DNA of 64,000 nt from Nitrospirota bacterium (GCA_039715075.1 JBDLIC010000002.1:2108-66107); one strand, 5' to 3'. Numbered from the stretch's first letter, positions 15,815 to 61,141 are shown. Program-made: numbers and translations. Notes: a model not told the origin generated them from the letters alone.

Positions 15815-16957
15815 TTACTGTTTTGTCCCCTCTGAAAGAATATTCAGATATTCTGCATAAACATACCGTTTGTCCCGTTTTCTCCCGGTAATTTCTTTCA
15901 GTATGCCTGCCTTTTCCAGTTGTGCCACCAGAGTCGACGAAGCCTGGAAGGATATATCAAACATCTCTGCTATTGTCTTCACAGCAACATAAGGCATGCT
16001 GTACAGTTTTTCAAGAATGCCGACCGCAAGAGGAGACGATATCTTCTCTTTCCAGAGCAGGTCCCTGTGCCGGGTCTGCAGCTCGAGTATTCTCCGTGCA
16101 GAATCCACCGCATAGTCTGATGTTTCAACAATCCCTTTCAGAAAAAAAGCGATCCACTGTTCGTAGTCGCCATTTTCTCTCACAAGATTCAGCCTGTCAT
16201 AATACTCCTGTCTCAACCGTTTAAAATAATAGCTCAGATAAAGCAGCGGCCGGTGAAGTACTTCTTTCCACATCAGATAAAAAGTTATCAGCAGTCTCCC
16301 CAGGCGTCCGTTTCCGTCCAGATAAGGATGAATAGTTTCAAACTGGTAATGAATCAGTGCACAGTTAATGAGAACCGGCAGCTTAGTGGCAGCATGAATG
16401 TATTTTTCAAGGTCACCCATAGCGGTCTTTGCCTCATTGGGCGGTGGAGGCACAAATGTTGCGTCAGCCAGTGTGCATCCGGCAGGTCCGATCCAGTTCT
16501 GCGACGTGCGTATCTGTCCCGGCTTCTTGTCACCTCCGCGGACGCCTTTCATAAGGACCTTATGTATATCATTTAAAAGCCTCAGGCTCATGGGGAATGT
16601 TTTTAGCCTCTTTGTACCGTAGTTCAATGCACCGATATAGTTCACAACCTCGGCAACATCATTTATATTGTCCGGTTTTCCACCGGTCTCAAATTCAAAC
16701 AGATCTTCGAGGGATGCCTGTGTTCCCTCGATCTGAGAGCTCAGAAGCGCCTCCTTACGTACAAACATGGCTATGAAAAGGTCTATATTGGGAAGAATAT
16801 GCCCGATGCCGTCCAAACGGGCCAGAGACATGTCTGCATTGGAGAGGAGGCCCTGCATGTCTCCGTTTAGTGATATGGCCGGTTTTGGCGGAAGGGGTTT
16901 TGGGATAAAAGCCCTGTAATTTGATGCCTGTCTGATATATGTCCCGCTTCTGTTCAC
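15815..16957 (-). CDS. Fic-family protein (AMPylation-type Fic/DOC domain with C-terminal winged helix)
   Basis: Fic core motif HPYLDGNGRLGRLL (HPFx[DE]GNGR) with a Fic_N-like N-terminus. Confidence 0.85.
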   Translation of the reverse strand: MNRSGTYIRQASNYRAFIPKPLPPKPAISLNGDMQGLLSNADMSLARLDGIGHILPNIDLFIAMFVRKEALLSSQIEGTQASLEDLFEFETGGKPDNINDVAEVVNYIGALNYGTKRLKTFPMSLRLLNDIHKVLMKGVRGGDKKPGQIRTSQNWIGPAGCTLADATFVPPPPNEAKTAMGDLEKYIHAATKLPVLINCALIHYQFETIHPYLDGNGRLGRLLITFYLMWKEVLHRPLLYLSYYFKRLRQEYYDRLNLVRENGDYEQWIAFFLKGIVETSDYAVDSARRILELQTRHRDLLWKEKISSPLAVGILEKLYSMPYVAVKTIAEMFDISFQASSTLVAQLEKAGILKEITGRKRDKRYVYAEYLNILSEGTKQ

Positions 16958-17104: not shown

Positions 17105-20100
17105 CTACGTTTTTTTGTAATAATCAATAAGCTTGTCTATATAAGGGCAAATGTCTGTTAAAATAATTTTGTTCGTATCCTGAATATAATCACAAATCAT
17201 GTATTGTTTGGTATTCGGCCTGATAAAAAAGCAATAATCACTAAGACTTCTCACCTTCGGCACAAGCTCTGGATAACTAATTTCCAGCAAATCCCTGTTG
17301 AATTTTCTAATTTTCCACCATTCATAGTCTTTTATCTCATCATGACTCTTAACCAGCAGGTCTTTTATTTCTTCTGCACTTTTCAGCAAATCCCTGGATA
17401 ATTGAATCTCTTTTTTCTCTCTCGAAATTTGTTCATATAAATTTGGCAACGAGATAATCACATTAAGATAATCCAGATTGCTTACTTCTTTTGTTTCAGA
17501 TGTGATATCAAAACCATCATCTTTTATTGCCTGAACAAGTTTATCCATAGATTCAGGAGAGAAAATAAAATCTTCTTCTGAGAATTTGTCTTCTCCAAAG
17601 TCCTTTATCACTTGCTTTTTTCTATAGTCATAAAACATGTTATGAAGATAAATAACATCTCTTGATGAATCATAATATTTCTCACGAAAACTGAAATCAT
17701 ATTCAGGAGCTATGTTCTCATGGTATTCAACAATATTAAATTCAAAATTCATAATTGCAAATAACAGTGCATCATTCTTCCCGGTTACCTTAAATATATA
17801 GAGAAGCCTCTTTTGCTCATCAATCAAAATCTGATCAATCGATCCCCGGTCTTTACTTACATGGACCTTATTCACTTTCTTTAATTTCTCGTCAAACAAA
17901 ATAATATTATCGTCTCCAAGCATAAGCCGCGGAGGTGATACCGGCAAAACTGCATAGCTTTCTCCCATGGACTTGACTTTTCTCTGTTTACTTATCGTTC
18001 CCTCATATAAATCAATGGCAGCAAGTCTGCGATCATCCCATTCATCTTCATCAGGGAGATAGATAACGTACAGGTATCTATGGTCATCCGTCAGGAACAA
18101 ACCGTCTTCAAAGTAAGAGTTCTCTTCCAGGTGCAGCACATCAGACAGGTCAAGCTGGGCCAAAACGCTTGAATTCTCACCTTTCAATATAACCCTGATA
18201 TAATGGAACTCGTCGTCAGTATCTTCACAAAGGAAGTGGTATATTTTCTGTATACTATCAGCATGAATCACCTTTTTGAACTTATAGTGAAAGTTGTTCA
18301 GCCGGTATTTCCATGCATTTGTATTTTCAATATTAAATATTATCAGCCAATTAGTGTTATCTATTGATATATCAAAAAATACCTCATCACCTTTGATGCT
18401 TATAAAATCAAAATCTTTTGCAGATTTCCTGGAAAAGGCTTCATTAATATCAGAATTTACAACCACATTTATCGGGACACCCTCTACCGAGTACAAAGAT
18501 GCCAGTTCCTTTTCCACATTCAGAACTGCAGCCCTGTCCTGAATCATATCTCTATACATGTCGGCCCTTTCATTATCACCGTAAAGAAGACTCTTCCTTA
18601 AAGATTCAATATAACTTGCCTGCTGCAACTTACTCATTATGGCTTTTAGCTTCTTATCATTTTTCTTAAATTCCTCTTTTGAAATATAGACCGACTCCTT
18701 CTTGATCATTTCCATGATTTTCTCCGCCCGATTAAGGCTGATATCGTCCTTTTCCATTTGCTTGCAGTAATCACGATATTTCTTTCTACTCGTTTCCACA
18801 CTATATTCATGACGTAATTTTTTTAATATTTCTTCACACCTCATCCTGTTGCGTTTATTTTCATGTTGAGAAAGTACGCTGGATTCTTTTCTAATGAGTG
18901 AATAAAGCTTTTCAGCATTATCAATATTCATATCATCGGACTCGAGCTGACCAAATAAATCTTTGACCCGTTTCCTGGCGATTCCTCTTGCTGTTTCATC
19001 AAACATATTTTTTATTTTCTGATAAGACGTGTCATTATGGAATCCTGCAAATGCATTTTTTAAAAGCTGCTCTGCCCTGTTCATCTCTCCTGTGATGGAT
19101 ATATTCGTAAGTTCAATATATGAAAGCCATGCATCGCGTGCTTTACTCTGCCTGAGCGAGAGCAGGTCCTCATTATCAAGAACAGCTTTAATATGAGGAT
19201 ATTCGTGACCCAACGATTTCAGACTCTCGTTTCTGACCCGCTCCTTCAGCAGTAAAAAAAGCCTGTTAAAAGCAGCCTCATTGTTCCCGGACTCAAGATG
19301 CCTTGATATTTCACTTATCGTATTAAAAATTTGTGATCTTTTCTCTTCCTCAACCGCCTCTTTGATTAGCCGGTCGATTTCATTCCCTTTTTGACGGTCT
19401 TTAATCTTCAATTTTTTCAGAATAGTAAGCCTCGATGATGATTCGGAGGTTCCCGAGTATTCTTTCCAGAGAGCTTCAACTTCATCCTCACTCCGTATTG
19501 CAAGCAGAACTTTTAAAAGGTCTCTTGCATCTTCATATTCAGGACAGATTGATAATGCATTACGCACTTCAGCTTCAGAATCTTCAAAGCTGTTTTGATC
19601 GAATGCACTTCTTGCTCTAATAAGATATGGCTCAGCTTGCGTTATCAATACAGTATTTATATCTCTTCTTAATGCCTCTATACCATCTATATGCCCATCC
19701 AGTCTTTCTGCAAGCTCGAGCATATCATACGCTGCTCGTGACTCTGCTTTCTGGTGAAGAAGGTTTGCATATCGGTAAACGGACTCCTGCTTTAACTCGT
19801 AAATGTTGCACTCCTCAAACAATCCCTTTGCGTCATCAAGCTGATTATTCAGGAAATACAGGTTAGCAAGCTCTTCCTTAACCTCATCACCCATTAAATC
19901 ATCAGGGATGCTTAAGAGTATATCGAGAGCAGTACCATATGCTCCAATCTCTTCTCTTAGAATAGATACTCCTCTCAGAAGCGCAGGTAAATCCTGTTTG
20001 CGATCTATTTCCATATCTGCGAGAACTTCTGTTGCATCATCATAGTCGTAGGTGTCAAGGTACAGTCTTGCCTTATCAATGCAGCCTGCTATCCCGTCGG

Positions 20101-20518
20101 TGTTTATGTTGTCAGGAGAACGGGATTTAACTTTTTTCTTCTTCTGTCTTGCGGGTTTTACGGAATCTGCCTTTCGCAGTCCTGCCAGAACTTTGCGCGA
20201 AAGCTGATGTAATTTGGCATGGCATGCATCAACTAACGGAGTTACTTTATATCGAATCAGAACAATATTTTCATCCCACTCCGTTGGTTCAAGATCAAAG
20301 AGGTCCGGATAGTTTCCGAGAAGATAATTTTGCAGGTTGGATTTAATTCTATACGCCTGTTCTTTGTCTTTATCCGACAGATGAATGTGCGGTGTGGGAT
20401 TTATCTGTTTTATGGCTCTGATAATGATGTCAATAGAAGATATCTTATCATCCGCAAGAATAGCCTCAGCTTTTTTTATCAAGTCATCCCAATTTTCAGG
20501 TCCATTGATGGTCCCCAT
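17105..20518 (-). CDS. large uncharacterised protein (1137 aa) with TPR-like helical N-terminal half, beta-rich C-terminal half and a Lys-rich linker
   Basis: Long intact ORF with no Walker A, no methyltransferase motifs and no nuclease motif I could recognise. TPR-like helices include AYGTALDILLSIPDD...ANLYFLNNQLDDAKGLFEE. It sits between the PglX remnant and Fic. Confidence 0.6.
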   Translation of the reverse strand: MGTINGPENWDDLIKKAEAILADDKISSIDIIIRAIKQINPTPHIHLSDKDKEQAYRIKSNLQNYLLGNYPDLFDLEPTEWDENIVLIRYKVTPLVDACHAKLHQLSRKVLAGLRKADSVKPARQKKKKVKSRSPDNINTDGIAGCIDKARLYLDTYDYDDATEVLADMEIDRKQDLPALLRGVSILREEIGAYGTALDILLSIPDDLMGDEVKEELANLYFLNNQLDDAKGLFEECNIYELKQESVYRYANLLHQKAESRAAYDMLELAERLDGHIDGIEALRRDINTVLITQAEPYLIRARSAFDQNSFEDSEAEVRNALSICPEYEDARDLLKVLLAIRSEDEVEALWKEYSGTSESSSRLTILKKLKIKDRQKGNEIDRLIKEAVEEEKRSQIFNTISEISRHLESGNNEAAFNRLFLLLKERVRNESLKSLGHEYPHIKAVLDNEDLLSLRQSKARDAWLSYIELTNISITGEMNRAEQLLKNAFAGFHNDTSYQKIKNMFDETARGIARKRVKDLFGQLESDDMNIDNAEKLYSLIRKESSVLSQHENKRNRMRCEEILKKLRHEYSVETSRKKYRDYCKQMEKDDISLNRAEKIMEMIKKESVYISKEEFKKNDKKLKAIMSKLQQASYIESLRKSLLYGDNERADMYRDMIQDRAAVLNVEKELASLYSVEGVPINVVVNSDINEAFSRKSAKDFDFISIKGDEVFFDISIDNTNWLIIFNIENTNAWKYRLNNFHYKFKKVIHADSIQKIYHFLCEDTDDEFHYIRVILKGENSSVLAQLDLSDVLHLEENSYFEDGLFLTDDHRYLYVIYLPDEDEWDDRRLAAIDLYEGTISKQRKVKSMGESYAVLPVSPPRLMLGDDNIILFDEKLKKVNKVHVSKDRGSIDQILIDEQKRLLYIFKVTGKNDALLFAIMNFEFNIVEYHENIAPEYDFSFREKYYDSSRDVIYLHNMFYDYRKKQVIKDFGEDKFSEEDFIFSPESMDKLVQAIKDDGFDITSETKEVSNLDYLNVIISLPNLYEQISREKKEIQLSRDLLKSAEEIKDLLVKSHDEIKDYEWWKIRKFNRDLLEISYPELVPKVRSLSDYCFFIRPNTKQYMICDYIQDTNKIILTDICPYIDKLIDYYKKT

Positions 20519-20611: not shown

Positions 20612-22637
20612 TCAAGTCCGGTATGACAGGCAGCAGGTAATTCCTTCTCTCTTCCAATATTTTTCATTAGTCAATCCACCGTGTGATTGATAATATAATT
20701 TTGACTCGGGAAGCCAGTTAACAACATTTACTACATTCCCATACCACTTTAATGCTTCTCCGCCGTTTTCGTACAAGTTCCATTTTGCACGAATACAATT
20801 AGTGGTACTTCTATCTACTTCCCAATGAAATCTCATGTATTTATCATTATCGTGAGTTTTAATCCTCCCACCGGATTCACAATGGTTCAATAGGGAGTTA
20901 CTGTCCGTGAATATTTGAAAAACTTTCTTACTCAACCAATAAACAATTGGACTTCCCGGAATCTTCCCGAAATCCTCAGCGCTGGCAGTAAACTTCAATT
21001 TTCCAGCAATTCGATTATCCTTGAATTCCAGCTGCTTTTCCGCTTCATTTCTACCATCTACTATGCGTAAATACGAGCCCTTATGACCAGCCCGAACCTC
21101 CCGCTCCAACACAAAAGCCGTGGTTTGCACAACCTCCCCTCCAATACTATCAAATCCGCGTGGACCCAAATGAGCCATTGAGATAATAGTGTCTTGATTG
21201 AAGATATTTGCCAGCCAAAAACATTGCCTGAACCACAAAAGATATCAAGGTGTTAGCTGTTTTCTTGGCAAATAGATCAGAAGAATTGGCTTGAATATTA
21301 AGCACCGCTTGTAATGAGGGAATCCGCCCAACAAGTTTATCTGACACCCTCGTTAAAGACCCAAAAGTCTTTCCATGTTCAAACAACTCAAGAAGATCTT
21401 TTATATCCTGTTTACTAACACCTGAAATTACCTTAGTCAGATTATTTACTATCTCATCTACATCTAATCCTTTACTTTCCTGTATAGCCATCACATTCAT
21501 CTTTGGTAGGTCATCACCATTCAATATTCTTCTGTCATCAGCCCGTGCTTTCATTAGCAATGCAAACCCAGCCATCTGTGCTGCGCGATCATCAATATCA
21601 AGTCCGTAAAGATTTTTCTCAAGTATCAGTCTCGGTATATCCTTTGTCCTGTATCCTCGCTCAAGATAGATCTCCTTGAACAGATCATATGCTTCAACAA
21701 GTATATGCCCCGATCCACAGGCAGGATCCATAACTGTTATTTCTTCCGGATTCAGTGATTCAGGAGTTATCTCTTTAAGCTGTCTGTTTACTTCCTCCGT
21801 CTGCCCAGCAGGTTCTATGTAATACTCCATCTTCTCTTTTATCTTTGAATCAGGATAGGTCATGAGCCACTTTCGCCCGAGGCTGTTCTGCACCATATAC
21901 TTAACTATCCAGTTCGGAGTAAAGAGCTGTGTTGCAGCAGGGACATCCTCACTTTTAACAACCTTACCAATAACCTGGTCCTTCTTCTCAGATATATAGA
22001 ACTGATAAAGCCAGCCAATAATCTCTACTTCCTTCCAGTCCACTTCATCTATCTCTGTCACCAACTTTCTGACTAATGAATCAGAATGAAGAAGGTTCTC
22101 AGGAAGCAACAGCTCTGTCTCATCATCAATCTTTTCAAAGAGAAAAGGCATCGCTTTATGAAGGGCATTACACTGGGCTACAAGAAGCATCCGGTAAAGC
22201 CCTGCATCTTTATTGCCATCAAGCTTAAGCTCTACAACCTTCTCCTTATCAAGACCGGGAAGATCCACCTTCGCAGCCTGCTCCAGTATCTCAGGAATAT
22301 GGCTTCCTCCCGGATGGCTCAATACTCTATACCCATGACCAAGATAATCATGAAGCTCCATGTACCTCAAAGCAAGAAATCTGTTAAACCAGGTATAGGC
22401 AACCGCCTCCATCACCTGTCCAAAGCCCTCACGCTCAATACGCTGATCAAGCCCCTTCCTTTTTTCCGCAACCTTTCGAGGCCAGGCACGGCCAGATATA
22501 ATCGCTACATCACCTTTTTCCTCAACAGACTCTATTGATTTTTCAGAAAGGCCAAGGAGATTCGCCCGCTCTGTTACTGCGCGGATAAAATCCCGCCTTG
22601 CCGCAGGGGCGTATGACTTTAATCTGGATTTATTCAT
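20612..22637 (-). pseudogene. pglX: BREX PglX (BrxX)-like N6-adenine methyltransferase, disrupted
   Basis: Two pieces: a 495-aa ORF (22637..21150) and a frame-shifted 208-aa ORF (21238..20612) that starts with TTG. The N-terminus MNKSRLKSYAPAARRDFIRAV...AYTWFNRFLALRYMEL and motif I DPACGSGHILVEAY are PglX-like. No NPPY/F motif IV is found and total length is well below the ~1200 aa typical of PglX. Confidence 0.55.
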
Positions 22638-22638
22638 T

Positions 22639-23097
22639 GTCTTCCATTTATCTTCCCCGCCCTTGATGGGAGGGGACTGAGGGGAGGGTGTTTAAATGCA
22701 TCGCTCCCGTATAACCTCTAATGCTCCTTCCATATTTAACAATATTTCATTATTCCAGAATCTTAGCACCTTAAAGCCTTCTTTCTCTAACCATTCGTCT
22801 CTTCCCCTGTCTTTGCTATTATCCATATGCTGTCCACCGTCTACTTCTATGATTATCTTTTTTTCAAATGACACAAAATCGACTATATATTTTCCGATGG
22901 GTTGTTGACGCCTGAATTTAACGTTGTTAATTTGCTTCGCTCTCAGTTTATTCCACAACAATCTTTCAGCATCCGTTTGCTGTTTTCTCAGATTTCTGGA
23001 CAGGGTAGTTAAATTATCATTCATTAAATTCACCCCCACCCTAACCCTCCCCCCTCAAAGGGGAGGAAACTTTCTGCACAGATAAAATTCTGTTTTG
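22639..23097 (-). mobile_element. ~460-bp mini-element carrying a DUF559 endonuclease gene, inserted into the 5' end of the pglX-like gene
   Basis: It is flanked by a ~35-bp near-identical duplication (22603..22637 and 23098..23135, GGGC[G/A]TATGA[C/T]TTTAATCTGGATTTATTCAT), which includes the pglX-like start codon. The termini are imperfect G/C-rich inverted repeats (CCCCGCCCTTGATGGGAGGGGACTGAGGGGAGGGTG vs CACCCCCACCCTAACCCTCCCCCCTCAAAGGGGAGG). Confidence 0.65.
22692..23039 (-). CDS. DUF559 (Vsr-like) endonuclease-domain protein
   Basis: Typical DUF559 motifs YIVDFV...IIIEVDGGQH...DRGRDEWLEKEGFKVLRFWNNEI in a 115-aa protein. Confidence 0.8.
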   Translation of the reverse strand: MGVNLMNDNLTTLSRNLRKQQTDAERLLWNKLRAKQINNVKFRRQQPIGKYIVDFVSFEKKIIIEVDGGQHMDNSKDRGRDEWLEKEGFKVLRFWNNEILLNMEGALEVIRERCI

Positions 23098-23126
23098 TCG
23101 CCAGGGCATATGATTTTAATCTGGAT

Positions 23127-24536
23127 TTATTCATTTATTACCTTAATTGGAACGAGCAGCCTGTTTTCATGAAATAATGCAACATTCTCTTTCCGTGCAA
23201 GTTTTACCATAGCGACAGTAAAGCCTTTTTTACTGAATAAGCAGAAATATTCTTTTCTTGCCTTGTCGCCCCACCGCACCTTCCTGCTTTTTTCTTTGAG
23301 CTCCTCATAAATATTTATACCAACCAGCTTTGCTGACCATTTGACCTCACAAAAGAGAATGGTATCATTGTCCCTGTTGAGCGCAACAAGATCTATCTCT
23401 TCATTGTTGTCCCACCATCTGCCGATTGCCGAAAAAGGAAAGAGCTTTTCCATGTTCTGCCAGAGCGTTTCAATAGCAACTTTTTCATAGATAGCGCCAA
23501 GATACTGAGGCAGGTCTTTCCTGACAATATCAATGACATCCTTCACACGTCCCATTTCAAGCTCCCCGCGCTTAGGGAATATAAACCTGAACCAGAACAG
23601 AAAAAATTCATCGGTTATCCGGTACAGCCCCTTTTTACTCTTTAGAGGCTTTTCTTCCGTAACAGGTAATTCTCTTTCGACAATCTTAAGATCGGCAAGA
23701 ACGCTGAGATATTTGTTTGCAACAGGCTGGTTGATCCCGGTAGCATTGACGATCTCTGAAAGTTTTCGTTTGCCATGAGCGATGGCCTGAAGCAAGGCAA
23801 AATAATAACGCGGTTCGCGAAGCTCTTCACGAAGAATAAACTCCACCTCGTCATAGAGCATTTCTCCTTTTTTCATGACGTGATCTGTCAGGTTCTTCTC
23901 AAAGTCTTTCTCAGAAGAGAGTTGAAGCCAATATGCCGGTGTCCCTCCGGCAATCGAGAAATGGGCCAACCGGTCAGCAAACGGTTTTCCTGCACGAAAT
24001 TTACATGCTGAAGAAAAAGGCATGGGATCCACGCGCCACTGTCCGGTCCTTCTCCCATAAAGCGGGGAACGGTAACCCATCACCTCATTTTCCATCATGG
24101 CCATGCTTGAGCCCAGGAGAATTACATATATGGATCCATTGCGCCAGTATTCATCCCAGGCTTTTTGAAAAAGACTCGGGATTGCGGAATTCGACCATAT
24201 GAGATATGGAAATTCGTCTATTACGAGAACAAAACGTTGTTTTTTTGCCTTTATATACTCAAAACTCTCTTCCCATCCCGTAAATCCCCTTGTCAGAAGG
24301 AGCGGCTCATTATAAAATCGGCCAAGGGCCTGAGAGAACCGGAACAGCTGATCTTTTTCATTAGTATTTTCAGACAGGAAATAGACATGGGGCTTTCCTT
24401 TAATGAACTGCTTTGTCAGCTCTGTCTTACCGACCCGGCGCTTGCCCCATAGTACGACAAGCTGCGCCTTCTGCTCTTTCCACTTTTCTTCAAGAAAAGC
24501 CAGCTCTTTTCCCCTGTCAATGAATTTCATGCGCAT
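23127..24536 (-). CDS. AAA+ ATPase of the archaeal-ATPase (PF01637-like) family with a C-terminal DUF234-like domain
   Basis: Walker A GKRRVGKTEL near the N-terminus, Walker B VLVIDEFPYL, and a DUF234-type C-terminal region. Its stop overlaps the duplicated copy of the pglX start. Confidence 0.7.
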   Translation of the reverse strand: MRMKFIDRGKELAFLEEKWKEQKAQLVVLWGKRRVGKTELTKQFIKGKPHVYFLSENTNEKDQLFRFSQALGRFYNEPLLLTRGFTGWEESFEYIKAKKQRFVLVIDEFPYLIWSNSAIPSLFQKAWDEYWRNGSIYVILLGSSMAMMENEVMGYRSPLYGRRTGQWRVDPMPFSSACKFRAGKPFADRLAHFSIAGGTPAYWLQLSSEKDFEKNLTDHVMKKGEMLYDEVEFILREELREPRYYFALLQAIAHGKRKLSEIVNATGINQPVANKYLSVLADLKIVERELPVTEEKPLKSKKGLYRITDEFFLFWFRFIFPKRGELEMGRVKDVIDIVRKDLPQYLGAIYEKVAIETLWQNMEKLFPFSAIGRWWDNNEEIDLVALNRDNDTILFCEVKWSAKLVGINIYEELKEKSRKVRWGDKARKEYFCLFSKKGFTVAMVKLARKENVALFHENRLLVPIKVINE

Positions 24537-24894
24537 GCCTCCGGATATACTTTAGAGTATTATACTCTTAAGTATATAAAAAAGAACAGTCCCCGAATTT
24601 CTATTAACAGGATTTTCTATTAACAAAGCCCCGCTCCCGTTACCCAAAAAAATATGGAGGTTGAACCTCGATAGTTCGTCGATATTTCTTGATTATTATA
24701 TAAAAGTCAGGGAATGCATAAGAAGATAAGTATTACCAAAATAAGCAGTTCTCCCCTCTGCTTCAAATTATATGATGAATTACTGAGCCTGTCAAAAATG
24801 ACAGGTCATTTATCCATGTCTAAAATTCTATAATTGATGTTCCGGGTGACAAATAGTGCAAAATCTGAAAGGCGAAAAAGTCAGGACTGCTCCT

Positions 24895-60702: not shown

Positions 60703-61141
60703 TATCAGACCCTCCTTTCCCAGGTCAATTGACCTGCTGCCCGGCCGCATATTATTAACGGCCTGAACTGTTCTTCTACCTTCATCGTACTGCGATACCT
60801 GGCAGGAGTCAAGCAAAAACAGAAAGACTTAAGAGAGAATAAGAAAAATTAATTAATGCTATAAATCAGTCACTTATAATGAAGAATTCCCGCCGCAGAG
60901 ACAGCGGAGCATCGTTAGGTAAAAAAACTATTATTTTTAAAAATCCCCCCTCGCCCCCCTTTTCCAAAGTGGGGATTAAGTTAAAGTATCGTAGAACAAA
61001 GCTTCAATGCTGTCCTTAAGCTCACCACTCTATCCTTACGTTTTAAAAAAGTCTTATCATTCCATTTAACTCTATTTTTCAATTATTATAAAATTAAAGT
61101 TATAAACAGTTATTGGACCAAAATTTAAACAAGGTAAAAGA

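What the first reader, a model, noticed from the sequence alone, without database searches (positions are those of the whole stretch)
22603..23135. DUF559-endonuclease mini-element inserted into the first codons of a pglX-like gene with a ~35-bp duplication that regenerates the start codon
The sequence GGGC[G/A]TATGA[C/T]TTTAATCTGGATTTATTCAT occurs at 22603-22637 and again at 23098-23135. Each copy encodes MNKSRLKSYA. The upstream copy overlaps the stop of the AAA-ATPase gene in the usual operon-coupling manner. The ~460 bp between the copies carries only a 115-aa DUF559 (Vsr-like) endonuclease gene. It is bounded by imperfect G/C-rich inverted repeats that are themselves small hairpins (CCCTCAAAGGGGAGG). 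This looks like a compact selfish element whose insertion duplicates the target's 5' end, leaving the host gene with an intact start. A 35-bp duplication is far longer than typical transposon target-site duplications.
Basis: seen in the sequence. Interest (0 to 1): 0.7.

Follow-up and report, generated by a model that had tools for sequence, protein, structure and literature searches.

The report
Nuclease gene cassette inside pglX start
A small nuclease gene bracketed by two mirror-image G/C-rich hairpin motifs sits just inside the start of a phage-defence methylase gene, with that gene's first 65 bases repeated on both sides; these hairpins are the long-unexplained "BoxC/triplex" repeats of bacteria, which turn out to flank this nuclease family in most genomes examined.

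Summary
The first 64-65 nt of a BREX-1 pglX gene occur twice (22574-22638 and 23071-23135, 82% identical). The two copies flank a ~430-bp cassette.

The cassette is a DUF559 (Vsr-like) nuclease ORF between two inverted hairpin-plus-third-arm motifs. These motifs are the known BoxC/PIT/"TM" intrastrand-triplex repeats, for which no partner protein has been reported.

- Relatives of pglX (L001) and of the upstream ATPase (L086) lack the cassette. L086 keeps the ATPase-stop/pglX-start overlap. This supports an insertion.
- Both copies share a lineage-specific K5R change, so the duplication arose in this lineage. It is old: 19% diverged, AT-biased.
- pglX is now a pseudogene.

In 80 DUF559 loci from many phyla, 57-76 carry the same inverted motifs (controls 2/274). 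ORF-less motif pairs with the same geometry exist in E. coli and elsewhere.

Duplication of host coding sequence is not general. Identical proteins sit in single contexts, and the family is rare on phages and plasmids, so mobility is low and unproven. The DUF559-BoxC link appears undescribed.

The parts
24767..24795 (-). Consensus sigma-70-like promoter (TTGACA-17-TATAAT, 12/12) upstream of the ATPase gene. It is the likely promoter of the ATPase-leader-DUF559-pglX transcript.
   Evidence: No promoter-like site lies on the minus strand inside the cassette.
23127..24536 (-). ATPase_2 + DUF234 gene (469 aa; PADLOC candidate defence protein PDC-S27). Its TAA stop overlaps the ATG of the upstream pglX-head copy.
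23071..23135 (-). Upstream (decayed) copy of the first 64 nt of pglX plus 1 nt before the ATG.
   Evidence: It differs from the downstream copy at 12 of 64 positions. Ten of these are GC-to-AT transitions in this copy.
23030..23134 (-). 34-codon leader ORF, MNKSRLKSYALATKQNFICAESFLPFEGGGLGWG*. It consists of the pglX head and read-through of the 5' motif. Its TGA (23032-23030) overlaps a GTG of the DUF559 frame and lies 5 nt before the ATG at 23024.
   Evidence: Translational coupling is inferred.
23030..23066 (-). 5' terminal motif: CCTCCCC-TTTGA-GGGGGGAGG-GTTA-GGGTGGGGGTGA. This is a hairpin plus a third G arm, a BoxC/PIT/TM-type intrastrand triplex motif with a TTA second loop. The third arm resembles an extended Shine-Dalgarno sequence.
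22692..23039 (-). DUF559 (Vsr-like PD-(D/E)XK) nuclease ORF. It is 115 aa from the GTG at 23039, or 110 aa from the ATG at 23024, as annotated in the NCBI MAG.
22655..22690 (-). 3' terminal motif: CACCCTCCCC-TCAGT-CCCCTCCC-ATCAA-GGGCGGGG. It is the reverse complement of the 5' motif type, with the third arm facing the ORF.
22638..22654 (-). Purine-rich 17-nt tail (AAGATAAATGGAAGACA) between the 3' motif and the regenerated pglX ATG. It is a possible ribosome-binding site for pglX.
   Evidence: The ribosome-binding role is inferred.
22574..22638 (-). Downstream copy of the pglX head. It is the true start of pglX (MNKSRLKSYAPAARRDFIRAVTE...).
20612..22637 (-). BREX-1 pglX pseudogene. The ORFs are 21150-22637 (profile positions 1-508 of 1210) and 20612-21238 (positions 580-789 of 1210). 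The NPPY segment and the C-terminal third are missing.

Best explanation
A ~430-bp gene cassette was inserted, long ago and within this lineage, 64-65 nt inside the 5' end of a BREX-1 pglX gene. The cassette is a DUF559 (Vsr-like PD-(D/E)XK) nuclease ORF between two inverted copies of the BoxC/PIT/TM hairpin-plus-third-arm motif. The ATG of pglX overlapped the stop of the upstream ATPase gene.

The event left the first 21 codons of pglX on both sides of the cassette.

- The upstream copy keeps the ATGAATAA overlap with the ATPase stop. It now opens a 34-codon leader that reads through the 5' motif. The leader stops at the TGA of GGGGGTGA, which overlaps or just precedes the DUF559 start. The nuclease would therefore be made by termination-reinitiation within the host operon. 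The third G arm would double as its Shine-Dalgarno sequence (inferred).
- The downstream copy is preceded by the cassette's purine-rich tail. It restores a full PglX N-terminus, so the insertion did not kill pglX. The gene stayed conserved afterwards and was inactivated only later, by an internal and a 3' deletion.

Shown: the anatomy; absence of the cassette from the nearest pglX and ATPase relatives; origin of the duplication within this lineage; and the family-wide cassette architecture.

Inferred: how it integrated. I favour nick- or break-initiated copying at the structured termini. This could be widely staggered nicks or template switching at a motif-stalled fork. Such copying would duplicate variable lengths of flank, rather than proceeding by classical transposition. 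The nuclease probably recognises the folded motif.
For: Anatomy and the repeat.

Comparative evidence for an insertion:
- L001 pglX (84% aa) begins at the stop of a PIN gene, with no cassette.
- L002 has BrxC followed directly by PglX.
- L086 has an ATPase 89% identical to the window's. It has the same stop/ATG overlap, 19 pglX codons, and no DUF559.

Origin and age of the duplication:
- Both window copies share AGA-TTA (K5R), which L001, L086 and L002 lack.
- The copies differ at 12 of 64 positions. Divergence at 4-fold sites between the window and L001 pglX is 37%. The event is therefore old, and pglX was under selection after it.
- Differences are 2 of 27 in the proximal part and 10 of 37 in the distal part, Fisher p=0.058. 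Simple neutral decay suffices.

Family architecture:
- Hairpins flank the gene on both sides in 76 of 80 loci, at 7.6 per kb against 0.43 per kb in the rest of the loci.
- Strict three-block motifs with the third arm facing the ORF occur at 65 of 80 5' ends, 62 of 80 3' ends, and both ends in 57 of 80. Controls give 2 of 274.
- The consensus is shared from Nitrospirota to E. coli ycjD.
- Cassettes sit tightly between co-oriented genes: 60 of 71 upstream and 59 of 77 downstream neighbours. One example lies between nuoL and nuoM.

Recurrent flank or partial duplications around cassettes: L018, L020, L054, L059, L076, L082 and E. coli ycjD.

ORF-less motif pairs with the same inward-arm geometry.

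Expression: a single strong promoter-like site upstream of the ATPase and none inside the cassette.
Against: - No orthologous empty site with both flanks was found. L086 and L001 each match only one side.
- In L086 the pglX fragment ends at about nt 57. That is only ~8 nt from where the window's upstream copy ends, which hints at a shared breakpoint or a hot spot that this explanation does not account for.
- Host-sequence duplication is not seen at most other cassettes.
- There is no sign of recent mobility. Identical proteins occur in one context each. The nearest relative of this ORF is only 71% identical. There is one copy in 64 kb. Hits are rare in phages and plasmids.
- Translational coupling, the Shine-Dalgarno role of the third arm, and nuclease-motif recognition are untested.
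Confidence: 0.6

Rival explanations
1. There is no mobile element. DUF559 is a resident Vsr-like repair or structure-specific nuclease gene. The flanking BoxC/TM motifs are its cis elements, acting as regulatory, RNA-stabilising or protein-binding sites. The 65-nt duplication, like the tandem and partial copies elsewhere, is a by-product of replication stalling and slippage at triplex- or hairpin-forming DNA.
For: - Holder et al. 2015 (PMC4666352) report that TM motifs block polymerase in vitro and mark hypervariable loci in E. coli.
- Cassettes are stable in one context per protein and rare on phages and plasmids.
- Local tandem arrays and partial copies exist: L082, L076, L020 and E. coli ycjD.
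- A DUF559-domain protein, Caulobacter VsrA, is SOS-induced. It causes DNA damage when its partner m5C methyltransferase is missing. The authors interpret it as a VSP-repair nuclease (PMC12907096).
Against: - The gene still had to arrive inside the pglX head, because relatives lack it.
- The same ~37-nt motif pair flanks the ORF across phyla with very different neighbours. This implies that gene and motifs travel together.
- ORF-less pairs with the same geometry occur at many loci. This resembles autonomous and non-autonomous elements.
- PglX is an adenine methylase, so a T:G-repair partnership is not expected here.
Confidence: 0.25
2. The direct repeat was not made by the cassette's insertion. 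An ATPase gene unit carrying a relic pglX head at its 3' end (the unit seen alone in L086) recombined in upstream of a pre-existing DUF559-pglX arrangement. The relic head and the resident head therefore now flank the cassette.
For: - In L086 the segment shared with the window runs from 46 nt upstream of the ATPase to within the pglX head, in an otherwise unrelated context.
- The L086 fragment ends at about nt 57, close to nt 65 in the window.
Against: - The window's two copies share the derived K5R/AGATTA state that L086, L001 and L002 lack. The relic would therefore have to come from the same pglX lineage.
- L086's head is only 40-44 of 64 nt identical to either window copy, while its ATPase gene is 88% identical at the DNA level.
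- A relic landing next to a real pglX by chance is very unlikely. Homologous recombination through the head would not leave a duplication unless a circle integrated.
Confidence: 0.1
3. The feature is an assembly or binning artefact, or a chance repeat.
For: The window comes from a metagenome-assembled genome. Repeats can be mis-assembled.
Against: - A Logan assembly of run SRR27843388 is identical over 5,890 nt. Whether that run is independent of the window's source is unknown.
- The two copies differ at 12 positions, so they are not a collapsed or duplicated read artefact.
- The chance expectation for the 20-mer is 0.02.
Confidence: 0.02

Closest known systems
BoxC / PIT / TMECO intrastrand triplex repeats (Bergler 1992 at envM=fabI; Hoyne et al. 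2000; Holder et al. 2015, PMC4666352)
   Same: - The three-block design is the same: C-block, loop, G-block, a TTA-type loop, G-block.
- The G+C-rich hairpin with a third purine arm is the same.
- Both are intergenic and both occur as closely spaced inverted pairs.
- Both are linked to local rearrangement.
- E. coli ycjD (DUF559) lies beside the original BoxC upstream of fabI.
   Different: - Published work treats them as orphan repeats with no associated gene. Holder et al. write that they never found remnants of transposases or integrases. That paper has no mention of endonuclease, ycjD or DUF559.
- Here two copies bracket a nuclease ORF.
- The window's motifs are a variant with 7-8-bp stems. 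They do not match the E. coli regular expression exactly.
REP/REPIN repeats with RAYT transposases (REPtrons)
   Same: - A single-copy nuclease-type gene is flanked by inverted copies of a short G+C-rich palindromic repeat.
- The same repeat is dispersed, often as inverted doublets without a gene.
- Mobility is low and residence is mostly vertical.
   Different: - The protein is a Vsr-like PD-(D/E)XK nuclease, not a Y1 (HUH) transposase.
- The repeat has a third arm with triplex potential.
- No mobilisation has been shown.
Vsr-family nucleases: E. coli Vsr, the intron-encoded homing endonuclease I-Bth0305I (PDB 3r3p; grouped with Vsr and DUF559 in PMC3424549), Neisseria 3HRL, Caulobacter VsrA
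   Same: - The fold family is the same. Pfam DUF559 scores E=4e-40, and PDB 3HRL scores E=5e-24.
- All 29 invariant positions of the DUF559 alignment are by definition kept by the window's protein, which is its first row; which of them are catalytic was not mapped.
- A family member acts as a homing endonuclease, and another damages DNA in vivo.
   Different: - There is no adjacent cytosine methylase and no intron or intein.
- Homing leaves no flanking duplication.
- The substrate of this protein is unknown.
Integrating elements that carry a copy of the target gene's end (for example, islands at tRNA 3' ends)
   Same: The insertion is flanked by a long direct repeat of the gene end, so the interrupted gene stays whole. 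The displaced copy decays.
   Different: - There is no integrase.
- It is the 5' end that is regenerated, not the 3' end.
- The element is 0.43 kb.

Membership tests
DUF559 (PF04480) / Vsr-like PD-(D/E)XK nucleases | Profile match above the curated threshold | tested here: met
   PF04480 scores E=4.1e-40, 136.5 bits, against a cut-off of 20.6, covering profile positions 2-107 of 109. The NCBIfam YcjD equivalog PRK09767 scores 101 bits, below its 218-bit equivalog cut-off. The ORF is therefore not a YcjD ortholog.
DUF559 (PF04480) / Vsr-like PD-(D/E)XK nucleases | Conserved core residues and a solved relative | tested here: met
   All invariant columns of a 31-sequence alignment are present, including D49, E60, D62, Q65 and H66. 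PDB 3HRL scores E=5e-24. Catalysis was not tested.
BoxC / PIT / TM intrastrand triplex motif | Three consecutive blocks: a C-rich stem, a 3-6-nt loop, a complementary G-rich stem, a ~3-nt loop, and a mirror G-rich third block | tested here: met
   The 5' motif is CCTCCCC/TTTGA/GGGGGGAGG/(G)TTA/GGGTGGGGG. The 3' motif on the other strand is CCCCGCCC/TTGAT/GGGAGGGG/ACTGA/GGGGAGGG. The pattern is taken from PMC4666352.
BoxC / PIT / TM intrastrand triplex motif | Exact E. coli TMECO pattern CCCTCNCCC-N3-6-GGGNGAGGG-N3-GGGNGAGGG | tested here: not met
   Blocks 1 and 3 each deviate and the stem is 7-8 bp. This is a variant of the class, not TMECO itself.
BoxC / PIT / TM intrastrand triplex motif | Many dispersed copies per genome; triplex formation | not testable with these tools
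   Only the two cassette copies are clear in the 64-kb window. The whole genome was not available. The tools offered no model for triplex folding.
REPtron (RAYT + REP) | A Y1/HUH transposase-like gene flanked by inverted REPs | tested here: not met
   The flanking inverted repeats are present, but the protein is DUF559, not Y1. It works like a REPtron at most. It is not a member.
Insertion sequence / transposon | Transposase, terminal inverted repeats, short target duplication of fixed length, several near-identical copies | tested here: not met
   Terminal inverted repeats are present. There is no transposase domain. The duplication is 65 nt here and absent or variable elsewhere. Identical proteins were not seen in more than one context.
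Homing endonuclease gene | Presence/absence at one conserved site without flanking duplication; cleavage of the empty allele | tested here: inconclusive
   Relatives lack the cassette, but a 65-nt duplication is present. Cleavage cannot be tested with these tools.
BREX-1 PglX (the interrupted host gene) | Match to the BREX_1_MTaseX model; full length with the NPPY motif; BREX partner genes nearby | tested here: inconclusive
   The model is matched at 612 bits, above the 500-bit cut-off. Only profile positions 1-508 and 580-789 of 1210 are present. The immediate neighbours are FtsY, the ATPase, an unknown 1137-aa ORF and SoFic, not BrxA/B/C, PglZ or BrxL. The gene is a PglX remnant.

The most novel reading that the evidence does not exclude
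DUF559 nucleases are the missing protein partner of the BoxC/PIT/TM triplex repeats. The ORF with its two inverted motifs would be the autonomous form of a very widespread, slow-moving, operon-compatible element. The ~85-nt ORF-less motif pairs and the solo motifs scattered in E. coli, cyanobacteria and many other genomes would be its non-autonomous or relic derivatives. This would be a PD-(D/E)XK analogue of RAYT/REP. It would explain why these motifs are conserved across phyla, and why they mark rearrangement hot spots.
Probability: 0.4. Interest if true: 0.85.

Novelty: new variant of a known kind. Interest (0 to 1): 0.65.

Why it matters
BoxC/PIT/TM repeats were first seen in 1992. They have been shown to fold as triplexes in vitro and are linked to genome instability. 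Their origin and spread have remained unexplained, and no associated gene is reported.

DUF559 is a very large family of small nucleases. Its only experimental lead so far is Caulobacter VsrA.

Two observations give both orphans a concrete, testable partner:
- Most DUF559 genes sampled here sit between two inverted copies of this motif.
- ORF-less pairs keep the same geometry.

The window adds a clean natural example of how such a cassette can sit inside an operon. It uses the host gene's translation start for itself and hands the host gene a regenerated start.

If the link holds, it defines a new nuclease-repeat system comparable to RAYT/REP. It would also offer a handle on structure-specific DNA recognition.

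Tried and rejected
- Other copies in the window. tblastn and blastn found none. A weak G-rich hairpin at about 60945-60975 is not convincing.
- Rfam. Nothing above noise was found on the flanks.
- Exact-protein look-ups of the window's ATPase and of P0121. Neither is on record.
- General host-sequence duplication at DUF559 cassettes. Rejected: after masking hairpins, flank repeats equal the controls.
- Selection or gene conversion to explain why the first 27 nt of the upstream copy are better preserved. Not needed (Fisher p=0.058).
- Recent transposition. Rejected for the two most widespread identical proteins, which each have one context.
- A phage homing-endonuclease lifestyle. Rejected: 2 of 50,697 phage records match.
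- A clean ycjD presence/absence site in E. coli. Not found: ycjD is replaced by the eefRABCD operon in B2, D, E and F strains.
- The ycjD-versus-motif-count relation in E. coli. It is suggestive but confounded by phylogeny.
- The 70%-identity ATPase relatives. None carries a pglX head, a DUF559 or a pglX gene.
- Literature searches for DUF559, COG2852, ycjD, intrastrand triplex, PIT and Vsr-like terminal repeats. No paper linking the gene family to the motif was found. Subscription-only papers (Hoyne 2000; the Bachellier surveys) could not be read.


Full report
**1. The observation**

All relevant genes are on the minus strand.

The repeat is real and longer than reported. The two copies lie at 22574-22638 and 23071-23135. 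They are 65 nt long, 82% identical without gaps, and 497 nt apart. The shared 20-mer ATGAATAAATCCAGATTAAA occurs exactly twice in the window, against 0.02 expected.

Both copies start with an ATG and encode MNKSRLKSYA. The similarity then continues for 21 codons in all:
- downstream copy: ...PAARRDFIRAVTE
- upstream copy...LATKQNFICAESF

The upstream ATG (23134-23132) overlaps the TAA (23129-23127) of a 469-aa ATPase_2/DUF234 gene as ATGAATAA.

Between the copies lies one gene, a DUF559 ORF at 22692-23039 (PF04480, E=4e-40).

An assembly of run SRR27843388 (its relation to the window's own source is not known) is identical over 5,890 nt. The source is a Nitrospirota MAG.

**2. The host gene**

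The downstream gene is a BREX-1 PglX. NCBIfam BREX_1_MTaseX scores 612 bits against a cut-off of 500. PADLOC PglX scores E=4e-201. There are 8,000 homologues, and the best is 84% identical.

It is a remnant.
- The 495-aa ORF covers profile positions 1-508 of 1210.
- A second, overlapping 208-aa ORF covers positions 580-789.
- The NPPY segment and the last third are gone.

The immediate neighbours are FtsY, an unassigned 1137-aa AT-rich ORF and a SoFic gene. None is another BREX gene. The ATPase matches the PADLOC candidate defence family PDC-S27.

**3. Is it an insertion?**

The PglX N-terminus MNK.KLKSYAPAARRDFIQAVT is conserved.
- In L001 (84% identical PglX) the gene starts at the stop of a PIN gene (ATGA overlap) with no DUF559.
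- In L002 it follows BrxC directly.

A metagenome scan with the ATPase gave one close relative, L086 (89% aa, 88% nt). Its ATPase stop overlaps ATGAATAAATCC in the same way. Nineteen good PglX codons (MNKSKLKSYAPAARKEFIQ) follow, and then unrelated DNA. There is no DUF559 and no pglX. The 70%-identity ATPase relatives have none of this.

The ATPase-stop/pglX-start overlap therefore predates the cassette, and the cassette is not part of it.

**4. Origin and age of the duplication**

Both window copies carry AGA-TTA (Arg5-Leu6). L001, L086 and L002 have Lys5 codons instead. The two copies therefore derive from the same pglX lineage.

They differ at 12 of 64 positions. Ten of these are G-to-A or C-to-T changes in the upstream copy. 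The downstream copy is nearly identical to L001 over nt 28-59.

Divergence at 4-fold sites between the window and L001 pglX is 37%, so 19% divergence in a free copy means an old event. pglX kept evolving under constraint after it.

The uneven spread of differences is 2 of 27 proximal against 10 of 37 distal. It is not significant (Fisher p=0.058). No special mechanism is needed for it.

**5. The termini are BoxC/PIT/TM motifs**

On the coding strand the ORF is preceded by CCTCCCC-TTTGA-GGGGGGAGG-GTTA-GGGTGGGGGTGA (23066-23030). It is followed by CACCCTCCCC-TCAGT-CCCCTCCC-ATCAA-GGGCGGGG (22690-22655). The second is the reverse-complement form of the first, and both third arms face the ORF. The hairpins fold at -7.9 and -7.3 kcal/mol as ssDNA. 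Rfam has nothing there.

This three-block pattern is the BoxC / potential intrastrand triplex / TMECO motif. It was first seen upstream of E. coli envM (fabI). It has been shown to form a triplex in vitro and is found thousands of times in proteobacteria. It is linked to hypervariable loci. Its authors state that no mobility gene was ever found nearby (PMC4666352). That paper does not mention endonuclease, ycjD or DUF559.

**6. The link between gene and motif is family-wide**

I fetched 80 DUF559 loci from genomes of Nitrospirota, Thermodesulfobacteriota, Chloroflexi, Gammaproteobacteria, Alphaproteobacteria, Patescibacteria, Spirochaetes and others.

| Measure | Result |
|---|---|
| Polypyrimidine/polypurine hairpin on both sides within 200 nt | 76 of 80 loci |
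| Hairpin density in the flanks | 7.6 per kb |
| Hairpin density in the rest of the loci | 0.43 per kb |
| Strict three-block motif, third arm facing the ORF, 5' end | 65 of 80 |
| Same, 3' end | 62 of 80 |
| Same, both ends | 57 of 80 |
| Same test on control windows | 2 of 274 |

The consensus 5' end is CCCTCCCCC-TTGAT-GGGGGAGGG-TTA-GGGTGGGGGTGA, followed by 5-9 nt and then the start codon. The consensus 3' end is TCACCCTCCCC-TAA-CCCCTCCC-ATCAA-GGGAGGGG.

The odd HPPLTPPIKGGE, PLPSREGK and GEGQGEGD tails of annotated DUF559 proteins are translations of these motifs.

E. coli K-12 ycjD has the 3' motif, then a duplicated fragment of its own 3' end, then the classical BoxC before fabI.

**7. 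ORF-less pairs**

The E. coli hrpB-mrcB intergenic pair (TMECO 1+2 of Holder et al.) reads as a 5' motif, 14 nt, and then TCACCCTCACCC-TAA-hairpin. This is the same inward-arm geometry as the cassette, without an ORF.

Similar pairs with 9-33-nt spacers occur in L008, L009, L032 (a tandem array), L061, L062 and L074. They look like non-autonomous derivatives.

**8. How mobile is it?**

The evidence points to low mobility.
- The nearest relative of this ORF is 71% identical.
- The window holds one copy.
- Two widespread identical proteins each occur in a single genomic context across 14-24 contigs.
- The family hits 2 of 50,697 phage records. It hits 46 of 72,556 plasmid records, most of them chromids or mislabelled chromosomes.

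What does recur is local duplication:
- three tandem cassettes 93-98% identical in L082;
- a partial second copy in L076;
- flank repeats of 50-160 nt that include motif and spacer in L018, L020, L054 and L059;
- the partial copy at ycjD.

Duplicated host coding sequence is exceptional. After masking the hairpins, flank repeats match the controls (median 8 against 9).

Cassettes sit tightly between co-oriented genes: 60 of 71 upstream and 59 of 77 downstream neighbours. One example lies between nuoL and nuoM in three Nitrospirota MAGs.

In E. coli, ycjD is present in 3,377 of 5,426 genomes. In an evenly spaced sample, ycjD-positive genomes have 11-24 motif-containing places. ycjD-negative genomes have 1-16, with B2 strains at 1-3. 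In the ycjD-negative phylogroups the eef operon takes ycjD's place. This is suggestive, but it is confounded by phylogeny.

**9. How it most likely works here**

One perfect sigma-70-like promoter lies upstream of the ATPase (24795-24767), and none lies within the cassette. The likely transcript is ATPase, leader, DUF559, pglX.

The upstream pglX head now opens a 34-codon ORF. This ORF runs through the 5' motif and ends at TGA (23032-23030). The TGA overlaps a GTG of the DUF559 frame and lies 5 nt before the annotated ATG at 23024.

The third arm GGGGGTGA resembles the extended Shine-Dalgarno sequence GGAGGTGA. I infer translation of the nuclease by coupling or reinitiation.

The purine-rich tail (GGAAGACA) before the second ATG would serve pglX. 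These steps are inferred, not shown.

**10. Mechanism of integration**

This is unresolved. A 65-nt flank duplication fits several routes:
- widely staggered nicks (Vsr is a nickase);
- template switching at a motif-stalled fork;
- single-crossover integration of a small circle carrying target homology.

The variable flank duplications at other cassettes favour a repair- or copy-based process over classical transposition.

One puzzle remains. L086's pglX fragment ends at about nt 57, close to nt 65 in the window. This may mean there is a hot spot or a shared history that I could not resolve.

**11. Rivals**

- The main rival is that DUF559 is a resident Vsr-like nuclease, as proposed for Caulobacter VsrA. 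Its motifs would be cis elements, and the duplication would be motif-driven slippage.
- A second rival is recombination of an ATPase unit carrying a relic pglX head, as seen in L086. The shared K5R argues against it.
- An assembly or binning artefact is very unlikely.

**12. Verdict**

The insertion-with-regenerated-start reading is largely right for this locus, but it is not a general rule for the family, and selfish mobility is unproven.

The more important result is that the termini are BoxC/PIT/TM repeats, and that this nuclease family is bracketed by them across bacteria. I did not find this link in the searchable literature. Older subscription papers could not be checked.

Noticed in passing
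window 20612-22637 (-): pglX is a pseudogene. There is a frame break near 21150-21240. The NPPY methyltransferase segment is missing (profile positions 508-580). The gene is truncated at about position 789 of 1210.
   Followed up: partly
window 17105-20518 (-): A 1137-aa ORF has no Pfam, NCBIfam or PADLOC match. Its G+C content is markedly lower than the surroundings (0.29-0.42). It sits where the 3' third of pglX should be.
   Followed up: no
L086 2863-4370 versus window 23100-24582: The ATPase gene, 46 nt upstream of it, and a short pglX head form a unit shared by two otherwise unrelated contexts. In L086 the pglX head stops after 19 codons. That is within ~8 nt of where the window's upstream copy ends.
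   Followed up: partly
L084 (E. coli K-12 1351170-1351760, ycjD-fabI spacer): ycjD is followed by a degenerate 3' motif, then a ~70-nt diverged duplicate of its own 3' end, then the classical BoxC. Its 5' side instead has a different perfect hairpin (TCACCTCATTCTGACAA...TTGTCAGAATGAGGTGA).
   Followed up: partly
E. coli genome collection: ycjD is absent from about 38% of complete E. coli genomes, where the eefRABCD operon replaces it. In a spread sample, B2 strains lacking ycjD have only 1-3 BoxC-containing places, against 11-24 in ycjD-positive strains. Other ycjD-negative strains (for example an O55:H7 strain) keep 8-16.
   Followed up: partly
L082 2430-5400: A Dehalococcoidia chromosome carries three tandem DUF559 cassettes, 93-98% identical at the nucleotide level. 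The first is frameshifted. A long minus-strand ORF that looks like an inserted element (not identified with any family search) lies between the second and third.
   Followed up: partly
L032 2428-3590: About seven ORF-less motif pairs (~85 nt each, period ~125-140 nt) form an array on both sides of a DUF559 gene in a Desulfuromonadales MAG.
   Followed up: no
L005, L011, L051: A DUF559 cassette sits between nuoL and nuoM in three Nitrospirota MAGs. The 3' hairpin's G arm lies 7-25 nt before the nuoM start. In L011 the last ~12 nt of nuoL (TTTTATCCGTAG) are repeated just before the 5' motif.
   Followed up: partly
one search hit table: Many close DUF559 homologues are known only from contigs of 0.5-2 kb. 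This is as expected if assemblies break at the repeated flanking motifs.
   Followed up: no
window 60945-60975 (-): A weak G-rich element (CCCCACTTTGGAAAAGGGGGGCGAGGGGGG) lies in a divergent intergenic region. It may be a degenerate solo motif or a chance match.
   Followed up: no
window 15815-16957 (-) and 23127-24536 (-): A SoFic-type Fic gene and a PDC-S27-type ATPase flank the pglX remnant. The region looks like a decaying defence island next to ftsY.
   Followed up: no
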